Notes under the pieces: generated by a model
Seen by the model: the letters and a program-made list of their open reading frames with translations, nothing else
The model's database searches: none
What the model was told of the DNA's origin: nothing
NCBI GenBank assembly: GCA_964511265.1
Contig: CAZEES010000003.1
Span: 836 to 64,835 of the forward strand
DNA: 64,000 nucleotides
Direction of reading: 5' to 3'
DNA from: an uncultured Candidatus Nitrosopelagicus sp.
GTDB taxonomy: Archaea > Thermoproteota > Nitrososphaeria > Nitrososphaerales > Nitrosopumilaceae
Program-made: the position numbers and the translations under genes
In this document: piece by piece, positions 29,046-38,729 of the stretch
Layout of the letters: each line of letters starts with the position of its first letter
How positions within the stretch are numbered: the first letter of the stretch is position 1

Positions 29046-29648
29046 TTGGATAAAACACCTCCCATTGTGGAAGATATAATTAGAAAAAAACATTCCATTG
29101 AAAAAAAACGGACACGTAGTACAAGTTACAGACTTCCTGAAGAAATCTTAGACGAACTACAAACTGAGGCACAAGAAAAAAATATTTCAGAAAATGTCTT
29201 GGTAAAACAGATCTTAGAAAAATACGTAAAATGGAACCGAATTGAAGAGTTAGTTGGAATGGTTCAGGTTCCTCAAGGATTACTAAAACTGGTAGGAAAA
29301 GAGATCTCTGAAAAACAACTTGATAATTTGGTGGATGTCATTTATCCAATTATATCAGATTCAACAATATTTGCAAAAGGAAGTACGGACATAGAACAGA
29401 CTATCGAAATGTTGGAAGATTATATGCGTGCATCTCATATGAAATCTGATCATAGAATTGAAGGTACAATTCATCATTTTGTCATACAACATGGACTTGG
29501 AATGACATGGTCTGTCTTTGTAGAAAAATTAATGCGAAGAATCTTCTCAGAAAAGACACCAAACCTAGAACTAAAATGCCAACTAACAGGATCTGCGGTA
29601 ATTGCTTCAATTCCTCTTGGTTCAGACTTTGACGAGCATAGTTATTGA
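29046..29648 (+). CDS. Ribbon-helix-helix protein with C-terminal alpha/beta domain
   Basis: STSYRLPEEILDELQTEAQEKNISENVLVKQILEKYV. Confidence 0.75.
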   Translation: MDKTPPIVEDIIRKKHSIEKKRTRSTSYRLPEEILDELQTEAQEKNISENVLVKQILEKYVKWNRIEELVGMVQVPQGLLKLVGKEISEKQLDNLVDVIYPIISDSTIFAKGSTDIEQTIEMLEDYMRASHMKSDHRIEGTIHHFVIQHGLGMTWSVFVEKLMRRIFSEKTPNLELKCQLTGSAVIASIPLGSDFDEHSY

Positions 29649-29941
29649 GAAATTATCTTACGATACGTGTGATTACAATACGTACAAGTTATTCGTATAG
29701 ATTTTGGTTTTGAGCCAAGACGGATTTTCGATGCGATCCCAGGAGCAATGAATTTTTTGCAATTTTTACAAAAACTGGAACTAATTTCAAAAGGCATCTT
29801 AATTTTAAATTTCAGACTAATTTTTTTAGCTATTTCAGCCTGTCTTTGAGCCAACCCAGGATTATTTTTTGCATTAGATAATGCATTGTTAAATAGAATT
29901 TCTATACGTCTTGTGGCAATCTGCTTTTTGGAATTTTTCAT
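29642..29941 (-). CDS. rnp4: RNase P protein component 4 (Rpp21)
   Basis: IATRRIEIL, FCKNC, ITCTYCNHTYR; start at MKNSKK. Confidence 0.92.
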   Translation of the reverse strand: MKNSKKQIATRRIEILFNNALSNAKNNPGLAQRQAEIAKKISLKFKIKMPFEISSSFCKNCKKFIAPGIASKIRLGSKPKSIRITCTYCNHTYRKIISQ

Positions 29942-29980
29942 TATGTATCTATTTGATATGTTATAGAATAAATTAATAGA

Positions 29981-30054
29981 TGCAGTCAGCGGGATTCGAA
30001 CCCGCGTCACAGGGTTGGAAACCCCGAATACTAACCAGGCTATACTATGACTGC
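29981..30054 (-). tRNA. tRNA-Gly (anticodon TCC), intron-less
   Basis: GCAGTCA acceptor stem, CGGGG-TTTCCAA-CCCTG anticodon arm, GGTTCGAATCC T-arm. Confidence 0.96.
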
Positions 30055-31917: not shown

Positions 31918-34572
31918 TTATCCAGATGTACATCCACTATATCCACATTCAATACAGATGTGGCAGCCCTCAGTTAAGACAAGAGTGTTCTTACAAGTAG
32001 GGCATAACTTTTCTTCTATTTCAGGTTCTGCCATTACATGATTTTCTCGAGGAAGTTCTTGTGGGGCAGTCACTTTGAGTGCATTGTTAATCTGCTTTAA
32101 GATGTATGGATTTTTGATATTACTTGTGATGTAATCGTATAGATAGTCAGTGGCGGTAACTTCAAAGGTTTTCTCAGAGTTTTCACTTGTCATATGAAGT
32201 ACTTGTTTGTGTCTTGAACCATCACGATAAACAGTGATTCCTTTAAGGCCTAATTCATGTGCCAACAAATAGGCTGCTTTTACGTCGTCTGCAGAGACAT
32301 CGTTTGGCATATTGATTGTCTTTGCAATAGCATTTCCAATCCAGTCTTGCCACACTGCTTGAGCCATTAGATGATCAGTCCAATGAATATCCATTGCAGT
32401 GACAAAGATGTTTTGAATCCATTCTGGTATTTCATCAATTCCTTTCACTGAACCATAGTTATCAGCAACTTTTGCTAGTAATTCTTCACTGTAAAGACCA
32501 TTTTCCTTTAGAACCTCTTCAAACACTTTGTTTGTGTAAAAGAATCTTCCAACAGTGACACGTTTTTCAAATACTAGTGCAAAGGTTGGTTCCATTCCAT
32601 TTGAACAATCAGATAGCATAGATAATGTTCCAGTTGGTGCAACAGTTGTTGTGAGAACATTTCTAATTCCATATTTCTCAATTTTCGTGATTAAAGCATC
32701 CCAATCGTAATAGTGTCTTTGTCGTGGTTTTTCATAATAGCCAGCAATTGGGATCTTACCTTCAGGATATTCTGTCTTTGAACAAAGTGGGAATGCACCA
32801 CGAGATTGTGCTAAAGCAACACTTTCTTCCATGGAGTAATATGATAGTGCTTCTGATAATTTAGCCATAAACTCGTAACCTTCTCTTGAGTTGTATGAAA
32901 TTCGTAATTTGTATAATAAATCCGCAACTCCCATTACACCAAGACCAATTCTTCTCGATTCTTTTGATGCAACATTAATCTCTGGAACTGGATAATGATT
33001 TACGTCAATTACATTGTCTAAGAATCGTGTTGTCTTTCTAACAATTTCTTCATATTTTTGCCAGTCAAATTCGTATTGACCATCTGCTTTTCGTTTTGTA
33101 AGATTAGATAAATTGATTGATCCTAAATTACATGATTCGTAAGGATACAAACTTTGTTCGCCACATGGATTTGTTGCACGAAGTGGTCCGCCACGTGCTT
33201 TTGCAAATACATTGTATTTGTTAATTAGATCAAAGAAGATTAAACCAGGTTCTGCACTTTTCCATGCAGATGTTGCAATTAGATCAATAAGATGATGTGC
33301 ATTTATTTCGCGTACTGGGCTATCATCTCTAGTACTTCGAAGTGTATATGCACCATCTTCACTATTTACAAGTGCATTCCAAAAGTCACCCCACACTCCC
33401 ACACTGACATTAAAGTTCTCTAAAACTCCTGGTTCTGTCTTGTTAGTAATGAATTTCTCAATATCGGGGTGTGATACATCCATGATTCCCATATTTGCAC
33501 CCCTTCTCTTTCCTCCTTGTTTAATGACATCTGTAACAGTATTGATGATATTCATGAATGATACAGGACCAGATGCAACACCAGATGTAGATGCAACAAT
33601 GTCACCTTCCTCTCTTAATTCTGAATAGTTAATTCCAACACCACCACCTGATTTGAAAATTAATGCTGCATCAGAAGTAGTCTTCATGATTTGTGCCATG
33701 TCATCAGGCATTCCTAGTACAAAGCATGCAGATAGTTGTCCGAGACGTCCACCAGCATTCATCATAGTAGGAGAATTTGGTAAGAAGACTTGATTTACCA
33801 TTAGTTCAAGGTATTCTGTAATTCTTGTACCGTATTCAGTAAATTGTTTTGCTGCAAGTTTTGTTAATAATTCTTTAAAGCTGATTTTTGCTTGACCTCT
33901 TTCTGCAATATCGATATATCCATTAACTAAACCTCTAAAGTGGTATTGATTTAGATAATATTCATCAATTTTGAATTTATAATTGAATTGTTCTAATTTT
34001 GAAAGATATTCTTTTGCTTCGTCCACATTTTGTGGAGTATTTCCAGCTGCGTTGAATATTGAAGAGTCATGTAAGAGATCACCAATTCCAATTAGGATTG
34101 CAACTCTTTCAAATAATTGAGTTGGGCTTTCAATTATCTCATTTTTATTGTTTCTTAGAAGATATCTGGATGCTAATACGCGAAGGCAGTTAAGATCAAA
34201 GTGTTTTGAGACGGGATCAAGCGTTTTTGTGTTAAGAACTTTCATCTTCTCATCACGAATCTTTCTTCTCTCATGTCTATACAGAATGTATGATTTTGCA
34301 ATCTCACTGTGCCCTTGTTCTATCAAGGTTGATTCAACCATATCTTGGATATCTTCAACAGATGGGGGGTTTTCAGTACCAAATCCTTGAGTTGCTAATT
34401 TGTTTAGAACACCATCCGTTAGAGTTTGTGCAAGATCACGATCGCCTTCACTTGTAGCAAGTAATGCCTTATAGATCGCGTTTGTAATTTTATTCTGATC
34501 AAACTTCGTTGTGTCACCATTTCTCTTTCGGATCTCCGCGAAAGACGACTCTATTTGTGAATTTTCAACCAA
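31918..34572 (-). CDS. nrdJ: Class II (adenosylcobalamin-dependent) ribonucleotide reductase
   Basis: N-terminal ATP cone, FLPNSPT, LSACFV, TNPCGEQ, VAPTGT, GITVYRDGSR, C-terminal Zn ribbon. Confidence 0.96.
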   Translation of the reverse strand: MVENSQIESSFAEIRKRNGDTTKFDQNKITNAIYKALLATSEGDRDLAQTLTDGVLNKLATQGFGTENPPSVEDIQDMVESTLIEQGHSEIAKSYILYRHERRKIRDEKMKVLNTKTLDPVSKHFDLNCLRVLASRYLLRNNKNEIIESPTQLFERVAILIGIGDLLHDSSIFNAAGNTPQNVDEAKEYLSKLEQFNYKFKIDEYYLNQYHFRGLVNGYIDIAERGQAKISFKELLTKLAAKQFTEYGTRITEYLELMVNQVFLPNSPTMMNAGGRLGQLSACFVLGMPDDMAQIMKTTSDAALIFKSGGGVGINYSELREEGDIVASTSGVASGPVSFMNIINTVTDVIKQGGKRRGANMGIMDVSHPDIEKFITNKTEPGVLENFNVSVGVWGDFWNALVNSEDGAYTLRSTRDDSPVREINAHHLIDLIATSAWKSAEPGLIFFDLINKYNVFAKARGGPLRATNPCGEQSLYPYESCNLGSINLSNLTKRKADGQYEFDWQKYEEIVRKTTRFLDNVIDVNHYPVPEINVASKESRRIGLGVMGVADLLYKLRISYNSREGYEFMAKLSEALSYYSMEESVALAQSRGAFPLCSKTEYPEGKIPIAGYYEKPRQRHYYDWDALITKIEKYGIRNVLTTTVAPTGTLSMLSDCSNGMEPTFALVFEKRVTVGRFFYTNKVFEEVLKENGLYSEELLAKVADNYGSVKGIDEIPEWIQNIFVTAMDIHWTDHLMAQAVWQDWIGNAIAKTINMPNDVSADDVKAAYLLAHELGLKGITVYRDGSRHKQVLHMTSENSEKTFEVTATDYLYDYITSNIKNPYILKQINNALKVTAPQELPRENHVMAEPEIEEKLCPTCKNTLVLTEGCHICIECGYSGCTSG

Positions 34573-34658
34573 TTATAATCCCCAAGAACATCTTATTCTA
34601 AACAGCTTAAAAATTCTTTGGCAATAGTTTTTCCAACAATGAGTAAATTAATTTCACA

Positions 34659-34753
34659 ACGAAAAATTTCGTAGCATTTTATGGATTTTCATAGTGCTAA
34701 TTGTAAGATCAAGATTTTGTTCTTGTTTTCAAATTGATCGAAACGAATTTCGA
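34659..34753. promoter_or_regulatory. Two related palindromes upstream of nrdJ
   Basis: ACGAAA-aa-TTTCGT (34659-34672) and TCGAAA-cgaa-TTTCGA (34738-34753). Confidence 0.4.
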
Positions 34754-34826
34754 ACCAGAAGATACTACAATAAGCAAAACACTATTTCCTTGAAAAGTTT
34801 CATGCCTAGAAGTTCCTAAGGAGATT

Positions 34827-36905
34827 TTATTTTGTGTGTTTAATTGGTTTGAATGACGAAATTAGCGAAGATGCTTTTTCAATTGCCTTTTTTATATCGT
34901 CGTCCTTTGCTTTTGGATCAAATGGCAATTTTACGAGCAGACCACCATCTAATGTCTTTGAAATCTTGTTATACTCAGATATGATGTCACTTTTAGCAGT
35001 TAATTTACCAAGTTCTGCATAGTTTAATTCCAATCCTTGAGAATAAAGATCACCATCTAAGACATCCATGATTGAGTTCTTGCCATATTTTTCACTATCA
35101 AGTGTAACAAATCTTGTTAATTCATCACTATCAACCATTGCAATAGAGACATCAATTCCCATCTCTTGACCTTTTTTATGTACAATATCAACGGCAGTTT
35201 CTAAGACTTTGTTTAGAATTTCCTTTCCTTCTTTGTCATCTTTATGTCCAAGTATTTTGTAAACTGCTTCTTTTAGTCCAACAAGATTAAGAATTAAAGA
35301 AGAATTATTTTTTTGCATGAATTGAGTTTTTTCTGCAAGTATTGGATTTACACCACGTCTAATTAGATCAGACACATCTTTTTTGCGTGTTGCCATTGCA
35401 GCAATTGCAGGTTTCAGTAGTAAAGCAAGTCTAGCTCTGAAGTATGTTTCATCTTTACTTGATTCAAGTGCTAAACGTGGAAGGTTAATGGATAATGATC
35501 CTAGTTTTATTGAGGGTTCAGAAGTTTTACTAGAATGTCTAATTGCATTAGTTGAACACATTCCTTTGGAGAAGGTTACATTTCCACCATGAGATACAGT
35601 TTGTGAAAGTATTTCGGAGTGATCACTAACTTTTCCTTTCTCATAATCAACAACTAAACCAATTTTTGGTGCAGGAGTTGCTTTGACAAAAGTATTGTAT
35701 GCAGAGAAGATTGTATTAATTAATTTTTTATCACCTGAGAGTGGAACTCTGAAGGACAGTATAGTTGGAGATTTATCAAGACTAATAGATGTAGACGACA
35801 TTGTAAAGACATCTACAAGCATTTTTTCAATATCAGAATGTGTTTTTGAGAATTTTCCAACTACTGCAGCTAAATCATCTATTACTATTTCTTGTGATGA
35901 TTCTTTTGATAGTAAATTAAAGATCATAGGAAGCACCTTTCCCAAGTCATGAAGTGTTTTTGGTGCAGGAACTCTTGTAACTCCAGGACACTTGCCTTTT
36001 AGATCAATTCCTTCGTCAATTAGTTCTTTGAGATTGAGGAATATAGTATCAGGTAGTAATGACCACAAACCCAGATTAGAGATATGTAATTCTCCAGAGA
36101 GGTGAGAATCAGCAATGTCTTTTGGTAATGTATTTGTGAGTAAGTATTCAGCTAGGGTGTTTTTTCCACTAGTGAACAGTATATCTTCAACACCATTTCG
36201 TATATTTTCAACATTTGTGAACATTTCTTGAATGTCAAATACAGGCATTCCAAGTCGTGCAAGTTTATTTCTATATTCTTCATGACCATGCTCCAATAGA
36301 ACATTATTCACCATTTCACGAATTAGTGAACCAGTAAGGTACGTTGTCTGAAATTTGTAGATTCTGTTTTCTACTTCTTCAGTAATTTTTTGTGATAATT
36401 CAAGTGGAAGACTTCCTTCACGTACTAAAGATTGAATGATTTTGTCAGAGTTGAATTCCTCAATGGAATCATGTGACGTTCTGACATACATCTTTCCACT
36501 TTCGATGATGGATCTCTCTTCAATTTGTCTGGCTAGACTTAGAACCAGTTTTCCAAGATTTGTGATAGTATAACGTCTTTCAGACTTGTTTAATGCCACA
36601 AGGGATTGTCTAAGAAGTTTTCTCAAATGATAGGCGAATTTACCACTCTCTTTTTTTGATTTGAATCCAGCTAGAGATTTTAATTCAGAATAAGTCAGAG
36701 GGCCTTTGGAATTTAAGATTCTTAAGATATCGATTCTGTTTGGGCTAGCCATAACAGAGAATATCATTCTGACACGTTTTGAGGTAGATTGTAGACGACC
36801 ATCACCTTTAGTATCATCATCCACTGCCAAATCTAGATCGTCATCGTCGTCGACGTCGACATCCATTACTAATTCTTCTTCAAAATCTTCGTCTTGTTTC
36901 CCCAT
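34827..36905 (-). CDS. wHTH + ATP-cone + degenerate NrdD-like fusion
   Basis: ASPNRIDILRIL...FAYHLRKL HTH; VRTSHDSIEEFNSDKI ATP cone; HLSGELHI and SINLPRLA NrdD-like motifs. Confidence 0.85.
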   Translation of the reverse strand: MGKQDEDFEEELVMDVDVDDDDDLDLAVDDDTKGDGRLQSTSKRVRMIFSVMASPNRIDILRILNSKGPLTYSELKSLAGFKSKKESGKFAYHLRKLLRQSLVALNKSERRYTITNLGKLVLSLARQIEERSIIESGKMYVRTSHDSIEEFNSDKIIQSLVREGSLPLELSQKITEEVENRIYKFQTTYLTGSLIREMVNNVLLEHGHEEYRNKLARLGMPVFDIQEMFTNVENIRNGVEDILFTSGKNTLAEYLLTNTLPKDIADSHLSGELHISNLGLWSLLPDTIFLNLKELIDEGIDLKGKCPGVTRVPAPKTLHDLGKVLPMIFNLLSKESSQEIVIDDLAAVVGKFSKTHSDIEKMLVDVFTMSSTSISLDKSPTILSFRVPLSGDKKLINTIFSAYNTFVKATPAPKIGLVVDYEKGKVSDHSEILSQTVSHGGNVTFSKGMCSTNAIRHSSKTSEPSIKLGSLSINLPRLALESSKDETYFRARLALLLKPAIAAMATRKKDVSDLIRRGVNPILAEKTQFMQKNNSSLILNLVGLKEAVYKILGHKDDKEGKEILNKVLETAVDIVHKKGQEMGIDVSIAMVDSDELTRFVTLDSEKYGKNSIMDVLDGDLYSQGLELNYAELGKLTAKSDIISEYNKISKTLDGGLLVKLPFDPKAKDDDIKKAIEKASSLISSFKPIKHTK

Positions 36906-36970: not shown

Positions 36971-37132
36971 TTACTTTTCTTCAACATCTAAAGAAAATTC
37001 TGATGTTGATAATGTCTGATTACATGATGGACATTTGTTGTTGTAATGTTTTAGAACATCTTTAACAGACTTTAGCATTTTCATTGTAGAGATCTTCTCT
37101 CCACACTTTCCACATACAACTTCTACTGACAT
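36971..37132 (-). CDS. Small Zn-ribbon protein (53 aa, not in ORF track)
   Basis: MSVEVVCGKCGEKISTMKMLKSVKDVLKHYNNKCPSCNQTLSTSEFSLDVEEK. Confidence 0.8.
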   Translation of the reverse strand: MSVEVVCGKCGEKISTMKMLKSVKDVLKHYNNKCPSCNQTLSTSEFSLDVEEK

Positions 37133-37201: not shown

Positions 37202-37567
37202 TTACTGTTTTTCTAAGACTATGCCACGTTCATCAAAGCCCACAATTTTCACAGAGGTGCCAATTGGGAGATCTTCAGGGGCTGGTATTTTTGCCAGAAA
37301 TCCCGAGATTCGTATGCCAGAGTCGTCTAATTCCATAACAACCCAAGCGTAAGGAGCCAAGTCCTCAAATCCAGCAGGCGGAACAGTCATGATTGTATAT
37401 GTGATAACCTTTCCAACTCCTTTTAGAATAGAATCTTCAAATCCCTTGTTTCCACATTTTTTACAAAAGTAAACAGTTGCAAGATGGAGCTCGCCACATT
37501 TAGTACATTTTCTAGCTAGGACATTTCCATCCTTTGCTGCTTCTATAAATTCAGGTTTTGCAGACAA
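37202..37567 (-). CDS. DUF35 Zn-ribbon/OB-fold protein
   Basis: CTKCG...CKKCG, YTIMTVPPAGF..APY; TTG start directly after thiolase stop. Confidence 0.9.
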   Translation of the reverse strand: MSAKPEFIEAAKDGNVLARKCTKCGELHLATVYFCKKCGNKGFEDSILKGVGKVITYTIMTVPPAGFEDLAPYAWVVMELDDSGIRISGFLAKIPAPEDLPIGTSVKIVGFDERGIVLEKQ

Positions 37568-37568
37568 T

Positions 37569-38729
37569 TTACACACTTTGGAATATGTGAACTGCACAAC
37601 TTGCTCCAGTAGCACCAAAGTTTTGTGTCAACCCAATCTTTGCGTCATTAACGGTTCTTTCACCAGATTTTCCAGTTAGTTGCTCAAATACTTCAACAAC
37701 TTGGCCAACACCAGTTGCACCAATTGGATGTCCTTTTGATTTTAAACCGCCAGAGGGATTAATAGAAATTGAACCATTTAATTTAGTCTCACCATTTCTT
37801 GCAGCTGTTGCACCAGTGCCTTTCTCAAAGAAACCTAGATCTTCACTGTCAACTACTTCTGCAACAGTAAAGCAATCGTGAACTTCTGCAAAGTCAACAT
37901 TTTTTGCAGTAATTCCAGCCATCTTGTATGCTGCTTCTGCTGCAATCTTAGTACTTGGAATGGTTGTTAATTTTTCACGTCCTTGTAGTGCTGCAGGAGA
38001 ACCACCACGTCCAGAACCAATGACTTTAACATAATCTTTTGAATGTTCTTTAGCAAATTTTTCATTACAAAGTATGACAGAGCTTGCTCCATCAGAGAAT
38101 GGACAGCAATCATATAATTTTAAAGGACTTGCAACTACTGCAGAGTTCATTACATCATCAATACTAATTTTTTTTCTCAAGTGTGCTTTAGGATTTAATA
38201 TTCCATTTTCATGATTCTTAACTGCAACACTTGCAAGATCTTCTTCGGTTGCATCAAATTCATGTAGATATGCACGTGCCATTGATGCAAACAGACCAGG
38301 GAATGACGCACCTGCTTGACCTTCATAAAAGAAATCAGAACAATAAGAAAAGTAAGTTGTTGTCCAATCAGTACCTGTATGTGTAACCTTCTCAGTACCA
38401 GTAACCAGTACGGCATCATAGAATCCTGCTGCAACATTTGCAAATGCTTCTCTGAAAGAAACAGAACCACTTCCACACGCGGATTCAATAGAAAGTGAAG
38501 GACACTCAGAAATCCCTAGATTACTCATAACAACAGGACCCAAATGAACTTGCTTGTCTGCTACACCAAATACATTAGAGATGTAACCTGCTTGGATCTC
38601 TTTAGGTTCAATACCAGCACTTTCAATTGCACCAACAGATGCTTGTAATGTGATATCAGAAATACTATCATCAAGTTTACCATATTTTGTACTGCCTCCA
38701 CCTAAAACACAAACACTTTCTCTTTCCAC
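37569..38729 (-). CDS. Acetyl-CoA C-acetyltransferase (archaeal thiolase)
   Basis: ESACGSG, EVHDCF, GHPIGATG. Confidence 0.93.
   Translation of the reverse strand: MERESVCVLGGGSTKYGKLDDSISDITLQASVGAIESAGIEPKEIQAGYISNVFGVADKQVHLGPVVMSNLGISECPSLSIESACGSGSVSFREAFANVAAGFYDAVLVTGTEKVTHTGTDWTTTYFSYCSDFFYEGQAGASFPGLFASMARAYLHEFDATEEDLASVAVKNHENGILNPKAHLRKKISIDDVMNSAVVASPLKLYDCCPFSDGASSVILCNEKFAKEHSKDYVKVIGSGRGGSPAALQGREKLTTIPSTKIAAEAAYKMAGITAKNVDFAEVHDCFTVAEVVDSEDLGFFEKGTGATAARNGETKLNGSISINPSGGLKSKGHPIGATGVGQVVEVFEQLTGKSGERTVNDAKIGLTQNFGATGASCAVHIFQSV

What the first reader, a model, noticed from the sequence alone, without database searches (positions are those of the whole stretch)
34827..36905. 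Dead class III RNR turned transcription factor? wHTH-ATP-cone-NrdD fusion beside nrdJ
Seen: acidic tail, ArsR-like wHTH, ATP cone and a long NrdD-like body that ends without a Zn ribbon or the R..GY glycyl-radical loop; no NrdG activase nearby; directly upstream of and co-directional with class II nrdJ. Established: ATP cones sense ATP/dATP, and NrdD barrels have dNTP specificity sites and need a glycyl radical. Inference: a pseudo-enzyme repurposed as an archaeal dNTP-pool sensor regulating nrdJ, an independent analogue of NrdR. It is probably mis-annotated as an anaerobic RNR in this aerobe.
Basis: partly seen in the sequence, partly recalled or inferred. Interest (0 to 1): 0.78.

Follow-up and report, generated by a model that had tools for sequence, protein, structure and literature searches.

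The report
Dead RNR turned archaeal gene regulator
This archaeal gene encodes a copy of the anaerobic ribonucleotide reductase that has lost all of its chemistry, gained a DNA-binding domain, and sits in front of whichever reductase gene its host uses, so it is most likely an undescribed regulator of DNA-precursor synthesis in archaea.

Summary
Window 34827-36905 (- strand) is one 692-aa ORF of a Ca. Nitrosopelagicus genome. It has a disordered acidic tail, an ArsR-type winged helix, an ATP-cone and an NrdD barrel (AF2 pLDDT 91; best PDB folds are all class III RNR). The protein stops before the Zn ribbon and glycyl-radical loop. nrdJ lies 254 bp downstream on the same strand.

It belongs to a large, unnamed family found in Nitrososphaeria, Bathyarchaeia, Aigarchaeota and Baldrarchaeia. 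In 91 representatives the first-strand Cys (0/91), the finger-loop Cys (at most 3/91) and the GY radical motif (0/91) are gone. All 26 genuine NrdDs encoded next to family members keep them.

The gene stays immediately upstream of an RNR whatever the class:
- nrdJ in 75 of 76 Nitrosopumilaceae loci;
- nrdH-nrdD or a class II RNR in 32 of 54 distant loci.

The long form is a full-length paralogue of its neighbouring NrdD (32% identity, E 2e-122). Conserved palindromes lie upstream of nrdJ.

The barrel's substrate and specificity elements are also lost, so the ATP-cone is the likely sensor, not a dNTP specificity site.

I found no publication on this family. DNA binding, the ligand and the direction of regulation are untested.

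The parts
34827..36905 (-). Whole gene: wHTH / ATP-cone / dead-NrdD protein, 692 aa
36786..36905 (-). N-terminal acidic, disordered tail (aa 1-40). It is specific to the Nitrosopelagicus lineage.
   Evidence: 14 D and 4 E in the first 45 aa. pLDDT below 50 for residues 1-27. About 85% gaps in the family alignment over this stretch. Present in P0001 and P0073.
36498..36779 (-). ArsR/SmtB-type winged helix (aa 43-136): a1, a2, a3, recognition helix 84-99 (SGKFAYHLRKL), two-strand wing, a5
   Evidence: Pfam HTH_20 and DUF7347 above cut-off. The family profile hits NolR, HlyU, ArsR and NmtR in the PDB at E 4e-5 to 3e-3. Secondary-structure order in the AF2 model. The recognition helix is among the most conserved segments.
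36231..36491 (-). ATP-cone (aa 139-225), variant with V-R-T-S in place of the canonical x-x-K-R
   Evidence: Pfam 38.8 bits. V141, R142, S144, E149 and F151 are kept in at least 93% of 91 relatives. Alignment with canonical cones.
34830..36230 (-). NrdD-type barrel without radical, substrate or loop-2 residues, truncated before the Zn ribbon
   Evidence: Profile against PDB NrdD, E 2e-41. Foldseek E 3e-20. Residue tables.
34573..34826 (-). Intergenic region between the regulator gene and nrdJ, holding the putative nrdJ control elements, a TATA-like box (34606-34615) and an SD-like GGGGA (34579-34583)
34659..34672 (-). Palindrome ACGAAATTTTTCGT, about 100 bp upstream of the nrdJ start. Other genera carry ATGAAnTTCAT or another palindrome at the aligned position.
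34738..34753 (-). TCGAAATTCGTTTCGA, the degenerate local form of the ACGAAnTTCGT palindrome conserved in relatives
34643..34657 (-). GTGAAATTAATTTAC, the local form of the best-conserved non-coding block (GT[CTG]AA-N5-TT[GAT]A[AC]), about 40 bp upstream of the TATA-like box
31918..34572 (-). nrdJ, class II (B12-dependent) RNR with ATP-cone and C-terminal Cys-rich tail; the presumed target gene

Best explanation
The gene encodes a transcription factor derived from a ribonucleotide reductase.

Proposed origin (inferred):
- An archaeal ATP-cone-bearing nrdD was duplicated in tandem.
- The upstream copy acquired an N-terminal ArsR-type winged helix.
- That copy lost every residue needed for radical chemistry and substrate binding.
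- It then lost its C-terminal parts stepwise: first the glycyl loop, then, in this lineage, the Zn ribbon.

What remains under strong constraint is the DNA recognition helix, the ATP-cone and the first barrel motif.

Proposed mechanism (inferred):
- The dead barrel serves as a dimerisation or oligomerisation scaffold.
- The ATP-cone reads an adenine nucleotide signal, ATP against dATP.
- The winged helices bind palindromic boxes upstream of the adjacent RNR promoter and adjust RNR transcription to the dNTP supply.
- In function this resembles bacterial NrdR, but it was built independently.

In ammonia-oxidising archaea the original nrdD partner has been replaced by B12-dependent nrdJ, and the regulator was kept.

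Shown here: domain make-up, fold, loss of catalytic and substrate residues, family breadth, conserved RNR linkage, and conserved upstream palindromes.
Inferred: DNA binding, the ligand, and the direction of regulation (repressor or activator).
For: Fold and homology:
- AF2 model with pLDDT 91 and pTM 0.82. The best 36 PDB matches are all class III RNR, E down to 3e-20.
- The family profile matches NrdD at E 2e-41 and ArsR-type factors at about 4e-5.

Dead enzyme:
- First-strand Cys 0 of 91, finger-loop Cys at most 3 of 91, GY 0 of 91.
- All 26 neighbouring genuine NrdDs keep these residues.
- NxN flap, HxHD, loop 2 and the phosphate loop are also lost.

Selection pattern:
- Conservation peaks at GKFAYHLRxL, the ATP-cone and aa 260-285.
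- Contigs from seawater metatranscriptome libraries cover the gene.

Linkage to RNR genes:
- nrdJ is directly downstream in 75 of 76 Nitrosopumilaceae loci with enough sequence.
- In 54 distant long-form loci with at least 1.5 kb downstream, 31 have a genuine nrdD and 1 a class II RNR. All lie downstream on the same strand.
- Individual look-ups found nrdD (L081, L082) and a class II RNR (L083).

Origin: long-form P0163 is 32% identical over 720 aa to its neighbour NrdD, E 2e-122, colinear up to the vestigial radical loop.

cis elements in the regulator-nrdJ spacer, compared with the rest of about 1 Mb of loci:
- ATGAAnTTCAT in 36 of 75 loci, 371-fold enriched.
- CGATnATCG in 33 of 75, 168-fold.
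- ACGAAnTTCGT in 15 of 75, 567-fold.
- The GTYAA-N5-TTRAC block, 60-fold.
- All sit at fixed distances upstream of the TATA-like box.

A separate element of about 50 nt follows the long-form gene in 26 of 71 loci, 71-fold enriched.

NrdR is rare in archaea (PMC9110341).
Against: - No experiment links the protein to DNA or to nucleotides.
- The ATP-cone has R-T-S where canonical cones have the phosphate-binding K-R, so the ligand is uncertain.
- The palindromes differ between genera although the recognition helix barely changes. They were found after looking at the data.
- ACGAAATTCGT followed by a T-run directly after the stop codon could be a terminator feature.
- No such box lies upstream of the regulator gene itself.
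- Within Nitrosopumilaceae the whole neighbourhood is syntenic, thiolase included, so linkage there is weak on its own.
- 22 of 54 distant loci have no RNR within 6 kb.
- The boxes lie 35-180 bp upstream of the TATA-like box, which does not fit simple promoter occlusion.
Confidence: 0.62

Rival explanations
1. It is a transcription factor, but with a wider or different regulon (nucleotide metabolism or replication in general) and/or a ligand other than ATP/dATP. RNR would be only one target, or an incidental neighbour.
For: - pyrB/pyrI are recurrent convergent neighbours in long-form loci: L084, L118, L125, L141, L164 and L081.
- 22 of 54 distant loci lack an adjacent RNR.
- The ATP-cone lacks the canonical K-R.
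Against: - RNR adjacency holds across two RNR classes and across distant archaeal lineages.
- The conserved boxes found in Nitrosopumilaceae are specific to the nrdJ upstream region within the 10-18 kb loci examined.
Confidence: 0.2
2. It is a pseudo-subunit that acts on RNR at the protein level, for example by heterodimerising with NrdD or by chaperoning or sequestering the enzyme. The winged helix would then serve protein contacts, not DNA.
For: - The long form is a full-length paralogue of the adjacent NrdD and keeps the Zn ribbon.
- NrdD works as a dimer, with the specificity site at the dimer interface (PMC11226230).
Against: - In ammonia oxidisers the neighbouring RNR is class II, not NrdD, and the window contains no NrdD. 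Yet the protein is conserved at 65-95% identity.
- The most conserved segment is the wHTH recognition helix.
- Loop 2 and neighbouring specificity-site elements are lost.
Confidence: 0.1
3. It is still an enzyme with different, non-radical chemistry on nucleotides.
For: The NLPR motif, GLxE, R598, D603 and the GG loop remain conserved in the barrel.
Against: - All radical residues and most substrate-binding motifs are lost.
- The barrel is the least conserved part of the protein.
- C-terminal parts have been lost repeatedly and independently: the target, P0126, P0127, P0129 and P0238.
Confidence: 0.03
4. It is a decaying relic of an ancestral nrdD with no present function.
For: There is progressive C-terminal loss, and the Zn ribbon was lost recently in this lineage: P0073 at 75% identity still has it.
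Against: - The reading frame is intact in all 80 Nitrosopumilaceae loci retrieved, out of 591 tblastn-confirmed matches in the one-genome-per-species collection.
- Some motifs are invariant across the archaeal lineages sampled.
- Contigs from metatranscriptome libraries cover the gene.
Confidence: 0.02

Closest known systems
NrdR (bacterial RNR repressor)
   Same: - An ATP-cone is coupled to a DNA-binding module.
- The gene is genetically tied to RNR operons of any class.
- Palindromic boxes lie near RNR promoters. NrdR boxes are two 16-bp partial palindromes separated by a 15-16 bp linker (PMC13584703).
   Different: - The DNA-binding module here is an ArsR-type winged helix, not a Zn ribbon.
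- The protein is 580-800 aa and carries a dead RNR barrel.
- Its ATP-cone descends from the NrdD cone, so it is not a NrdR homologue beyond that domain.
- The boxes lie upstream of the TATA-like box and have different sequences.
- It occurs in archaeal lineages, where NrdR is rare (PMC9110341).
NrdD, class III anaerobic RNR (T4, T. maritima, P. copri and S. thermophilus structures)
   Same: - Homologous ATP-cone and ten-stranded barrel.
- NLPR, GLxE and GG motifs are kept.
- Most relatives keep the Cys4 Zn ribbon.
   Different: - No glycyl radical site, no thiyl Cys, no first-strand Cys, no NxN flap, no loop-2 RGGQ, and a degenerate HxHD.
- No activase in the window.
- An extra N-terminal wHTH.
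- Far below the NCBIfam cut-offs.
Enzyme-derived transcription factors such as NrtR (Nudix-related regulator of NAD synthesis)
   Same: An enzyme fold is kept as an effector or scaffold domain and fused to a winged helix. The protein is annotated as the enzyme, and the function is deduced from genomic context (PMC2330246).
   Different: - A different enzyme family and pathway.
- In NrtR the enzyme-like domain is the effector domain. Here the ligand site of the barrel looks degraded, and a separate ATP-cone is the likely sensor.
ArsR/SmtB metalloregulators
   Same: Same winged-helix topology, with HMM similarity.
   Different: - The winged-helix domain contains no cysteine at all (the protein's only Cys are 306 and 450). 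The His/Asp/Glu metal site of helix a5 was not checked.
- Below the NCBIfam ArsR cut-off (23.7 against 55 bits).
- Fused to a body of about 550 aa.

Membership tests
NrdD (class III RNR, catalytic) | NrdD-type alpha/beta barrel homologous to solved NrdDs | tested here: met
   Profile against PDB, E 2e-41 to 3e-32. Foldseek E 3e-20, with TM up to 0.66 normalised on the target.
NrdD (class III RNR, catalytic) | C-terminal glycyl radical motif RxxGY | tested here: not met
   The protein ends before this region. Family-wide, GY occurs in 0 of 91 against 26 of 26 genuine NrdDs.
NrdD (class III RNR, catalytic) | Thiyl-radical Cys at the tip of the finger loop, and Cys on the first barrel strand | tested here: not met
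   The target has T287 and T452/N453 at these columns. The family shows 0 of 91 and at most 3 of 91. Roles of the residues are taken from PMC11226230.
NrdD (class III RNR, catalytic) | Cys4 Zn ribbon before the radical loop | tested here: not met
   Absent in the target and present in about 72 of 91 relatives.
NrdD (class III RNR, catalytic) | Substrate and specificity elements: HxHD, NxN flap, loop 2, phosphate loop | tested here: not met
NrdD (class III RNR, catalytic) | Radical-SAM activase NrdG encoded nearby | tested here: not met
   No CxxxCxxC ORF above 100 aa in the 64-kb window. The rest of the genome was not available.
NrdD (class III RNR, catalytic) | Reaches the curated NCBIfam equivalog score | tested here: not met
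   63.7 bits against a cut-off of 326 for TIGR02487.
NrdR | N-terminal Zn-ribbon DNA-binding domain | tested here: not met
   The N-terminal domain is a wHTH without Cys.
NrdR | ATP-cone | tested here: met
   Pfam 38.8 bits against a cut-off of 25.8. It is a variant with R-T-S where canonical cones have K-R.
NrdR | Nucleotide-dependent binding to paired boxes at RNR promoters | not testable with these tools
   Only conserved palindromes upstream of nrdJ were found.
ArsR/SmtB winged-helix regulators | a1-a2-a3-aR-b1-b2-a5 fold with an HMM match | tested here: met
   HTH_20 32.3 bits against a cut-off of 27. PDB profile hits to NolR, HlyU and ArsR. Topology in the model.
ArsR/SmtB winged-helix regulators | Metal- or metalloid-sensing ligand residues; curated family score | tested here: not met
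   No Cys anywhere in the winged-helix domain, since the only Cys are 306 and 450. His/Asp/Glu ligands of the a5 site were not examined. NF033788 scores 23.7 bits against a cut-off of 55.
ATP-cone domain | Binds ATP or dATP | not testable with these tools
   Family-specific residues V141, R142, S144, E149 and F151 are at least 93% conserved, but the canonical K-R is missing.

The most novel reading that the evidence does not exclude
Several archaeal lineages (Nitrososphaeria, Bathyarchaeia, Aigarchaeota, Baldrarchaeia) control dNTP synthesis with a master regulator that evolved from the reductase itself. A tandem nrdD duplicate became a wHTH/ATP-cone transcription factor. It outlived its parent enzyme and now governs the unrelated-cofactor class II RNR in the ocean's ammonia oxidisers. 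This would be an independent invention of the NrdR principle.
Probability: 0.55. Interest if true: 0.82.

Novelty: new variant of a known kind. Interest (0 to 1): 0.72.

Why it matters
**RNR regulation in archaea.** How these archaeal lineages regulate RNR is not explained by NrdR, which is rare in archaea. This family offers a concrete, testable candidate, with a defined protein and defined DNA elements.

**An unusually clear case of enzyme-to-regulator evolution.** Parent and derivative still sit side by side in some lineages. Intermediate stages of decay (long, medium and short forms) survive in others.

**Annotation.** The practical consequence is immediate. Many archaeal proteins are called 'anaerobic ribonucleoside-triphosphate reductase', including in aerobic ammonia oxidisers. 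That name can mislead metabolic reconstructions and inferences about oxygen tolerance from metagenomes.

Tried and rejected
- **Literature.** Nine full-text searches were run. RNRdb, RNR phylogeny, NrdR and PcNrdD papers were read. No description of this family turned up. A Tn7 preprint that mentions nrdD and HTH is unrelated.
- **Related-locus scan.** It was redone with 13 sequences.
- **wHTH model.** Single-sequence AF2 of the wHTH alone gave pLDDT 50, so no fold search was run on it.
- **Shared operator.** I looked for one operator shared by Nitrosopumilaceae and long-form loci. CGAA..TTCG is absent from the long-form spacers. A supposed 16-bp palindrome in long-form loci was an artefact of aligning an asymmetric element that occurs in both orientations.
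- **Autoregulation.** None of the nrdJ-type boxes lies upstream of the regulator gene.
- **Window-only motif counts.** These are at chance level. Only the cross-genome comparison carries weight.
- **Known RNAs in the spacer.** An Rfam scan of the window found only a tRNA, so no known riboswitch lies there.
- **Zn ribbon remnant.** None is present downstream of the stop codon.
- **Apparent 3.3-kb matches (L108, L111, L119).** These are the regulator plus the start of the neighbouring nrdD, not inteins.
Full report
**What is there.** The coordinates delimit one ORF on the minus strand, 34827..36905, of 692 aa. The same strand continues downstream with a class II RNR gene, 31918..34572 (TIGR02504 719 bits, with its own ATP-cone). 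Upstream lie a 53-aa zinc-ribbon ORF, an OB/Zn-ribbon protein and a thiolase. G+C is about 34%. The closest genome hit is Candidatus Nitrosopelagicus, 95% protein identity. From general knowledge, this is a marine aerobic ammonia oxidiser.

**Domains and fold.**
- Pfam places a winged helix (DUF7347 and HTH_20) at aa 48-122, an ATP-cone at 139-211 and NRDD over the rest. All are above the gathering scores.
- Every NCBIfam NrdD equivalog model is missed by a wide margin: 63.7 bits against a cut-off of 326.
- An AlphaFold2 model built on 91 family members has pLDDT 91 and pTM 0.82. Only the acidic first 27 residues are disordered.
- Its 36 best PDB matches are all class III RNRs, E down to 3e-20.
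- A profile of the family hits NrdD structures at E 2e-41 to 3e-32. Its N-terminus hits the ArsR-type factors NolR, HlyU, ArsR and NmtR.
- The modelled helix/strand order of aa 43-136 is the ArsR/SmtB topology, with aa 84-99 as the recognition helix.

**It is not an enzyme.** I aligned 91 representatives of the family with 26 genuine NrdDs that are encoded next to family members in other archaea. The genuine enzymes keep the following in 26 of 26 sequences, except the second Zn-ribbon Cys (25 of 26):
- the first-strand Cys,
- the finger-loop Cys pair,
- the Cys4 ribbon,
- the RxxGY motif.

The family has 0 of 91, at most 3 of 91 and 0 of 91 for the first-strand Cys, the finger-loop Cys and the GY motif. 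The roles of these residues are as described for Prevotella copri NrdD (PMC11226230).

The target's Cys450 is not kept even in relatives of 67-95% identity.

- the NxN flap is deleted;
- the second His and the Asp of the triphosphate-binding HxHD are replaced;
- the loop-2 RGGQ motif, which relays the specificity signal, is deleted;
- the TPAES phosphate loop is degenerate.

Column conservation is highest in the recognition helix (GKFAYHLRxL), the ATP-cone and aa 260-285. It is low through the barrel. The barrel therefore looks like a scaffold. The ATP-cone is the only plausible nucleotide sensor.

One caveat applies. This cone carries R-T-S where canonical cones have the phosphate-binding K-R. 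The neighbouring genuine archaeal NrdDs share this variant.

**A family with a readable history.**
- Source names place members in Nitrososphaerota, Bathyarchaeota, Aigarchaeota and Baldrarchaeota.
- Three forms exist:
  - Long (740-800 aa): Zn ribbon plus a vestigial radical loop lacking Gly, for example YSRSLAKYLPL.
  - Medium: ribbon, then stop. This is the form in most Nitrosopumilaceae.
  - Short: no ribbon. This covers the target lineage and several independent losses.
- A relative at 75% identity still has the ribbon, so the loss here is recent.
- Long-form P0163 is 32% identical over 720 aa to the NrdD encoded next to it (E 2e-122). The two are colinear from the ATP-cone to the dead radical loop. 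This points to a tandem duplication followed by fusion to a winged helix.

**Linkage to RNR genes.**
- In 75 of 76 Nitrosopumilaceae loci with enough sequence, nrdJ follows on the same strand. That alone is weak evidence, because the whole neighbourhood is syntenic.
- The decisive evidence comes from distant members. Of 54 metagenomic long-form loci with at least 1.5 kb downstream, 31 have a genuine, catalytically intact nrdD and one has a class II RNR. All lie downstream on the same strand, and none lies upstream.
- The spacer usually holds a glutaredoxin/NrdH-like ORF.
- Separate look-ups gave nrdD (L081, L082) and a class II RNR (L083).
- Linkage that survives a change of RNR class is what a dedicated RNR regulator predicts.
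- Loci without an RNR often have pyrB/pyrI as a convergent neighbour.

**Candidate operators.**
- The 254-bp spacer before nrdJ has a TATA-like box and an SD-like GGGGA.
- Alignment of 75 spacers shows further conserved blocks upstream of these.
- Across the loci the following are enriched 168- to 567-fold over the remaining ~1 Mb:
  - ATGAAnTTCAT in 36 of 75 loci, about 105-120 bp before the start codon;
  - CGATnATCG in 33 of 75, about 135-150 bp;
  - ACGAAnTTCGT in 15 of 75, about 180-225 bp.
- A GTYAA-N5-TTRAC block, about 80-90 bp before the start codon, is enriched 60-fold.
- The window carries ACGAAATTTTTCGT (34659-34672), TCGAAATTCGTTTCGA (34738-34753) and GTGAAATTAATTTAC (34643-34657).
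- Different genera have different palindromes at the aligned position.
- No box lies upstream of the regulator gene itself.
- Long-form loci have their own conserved element of about 50 nt after the regulator gene, in 26 of 71 loci and 71-fold enriched. It occurs in either orientation.
- These are footprints of regulation. They are not proof of who binds them. The palindrome next to the stop codon could also relate to termination.

**Expression.** Contigs from seawater metatranscriptome libraries cover both the regulator gene and nrdJ, but not the spacer. Coverage is low, and DNA carry-over cannot be excluded.

**Verdict.** It is wrong in one mechanistic detail, because the barrel's specificity site is not preserved.

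I found no paper on the family in nine searches, and the Pfam name of its wHTH is still 'domain of unknown function'.

It works like NrdR but is not a member of that family. It is a homologue of NrdD but fails every catalytic membership test.

I rate it a new variant of a known kind, namely an ATP-cone-based RNR regulator. Confidence is about 0.6 for the full mechanism and above 0.95 for 'not an RNR'.

Noticed in passing
window 36971-37132 (-): An ORF of 53 aa with CxxC-x26-CxxC (zinc ribbon) lies directly upstream of the regulator gene. tblastn found a match to it in 79 of 81 Nitrosopumilaceae sequences searched. No Pfam family is reached. Its function is unknown, and any relation to the regulator was not tested.
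   Followed up: partly
L129:8480-8870 and the equivalent spacers of L091, L109, L112, L130 and L133: In Bathyarchaeia-type loci a glutaredoxin/NrdH-like ORF (CHKC motif) sits between the regulator gene and nrdD. The unit is therefore regulator, nrdH-like, nrdD.
   Followed up: partly
L084:2886-4358; L118:8770-9690; L125:6284-7291; L141:8380-8892; L164:8207-9154; L081:10952-11881: Aspartate carbamoyltransferase genes (pyrB, pyrI) are recurrent convergent neighbours of long-form members, with or without nrdD in between. This may be plain synteny, or a hint of a wider nucleotide regulon.
   Followed up: partly
17-354 bp after the regulator stop codon in L089-L134, e.g. L129:8375-8430: A conserved non-coding element of about 50 nt (TT.TTAGAA...TAAAATT[CT]TGTAT...AAATT[AG]ACA[CT]) occurs in either orientation relative to the flanking genes. 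The reason for the inversion is unexplained.
   Followed up: partly
L024, L026, L045, L051, L055 (Nitrosotenuis-type loci), nrdJ region: nrdJ gives only a 466-aa contiguous match, and the gene region is longer than in other genera. This may be an insertion or an intein.
   Followed up: no
window 31918-32010 (-): NrdJ ends in a Cys-rich tail, CPTCKNTLVLTEGCHICIECGYSGC. The class II RNR of L083 has a similar tail.
   Followed up: no
window 37202-38729 (-): A thiolase-like gene and an OB-fold/Zn-ribbon (ChsH2/DUF35-type) gene overlap by 50 nt and are syntenic with the regulator throughout Nitrosopumilaceae.
   Followed up: no
window 29981-30054 (-): A tRNA gene is overlapped by the mechanical ORF 29642-30010, which is therefore probably not a gene at its 5' end.
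   Followed up: no
L061: This is the only Nitrosopumilus locus where nrdJ is not downstream. It lies about 5 kb upstream on the opposite strand, which suggests a local rearrangement.
   Followed up: no
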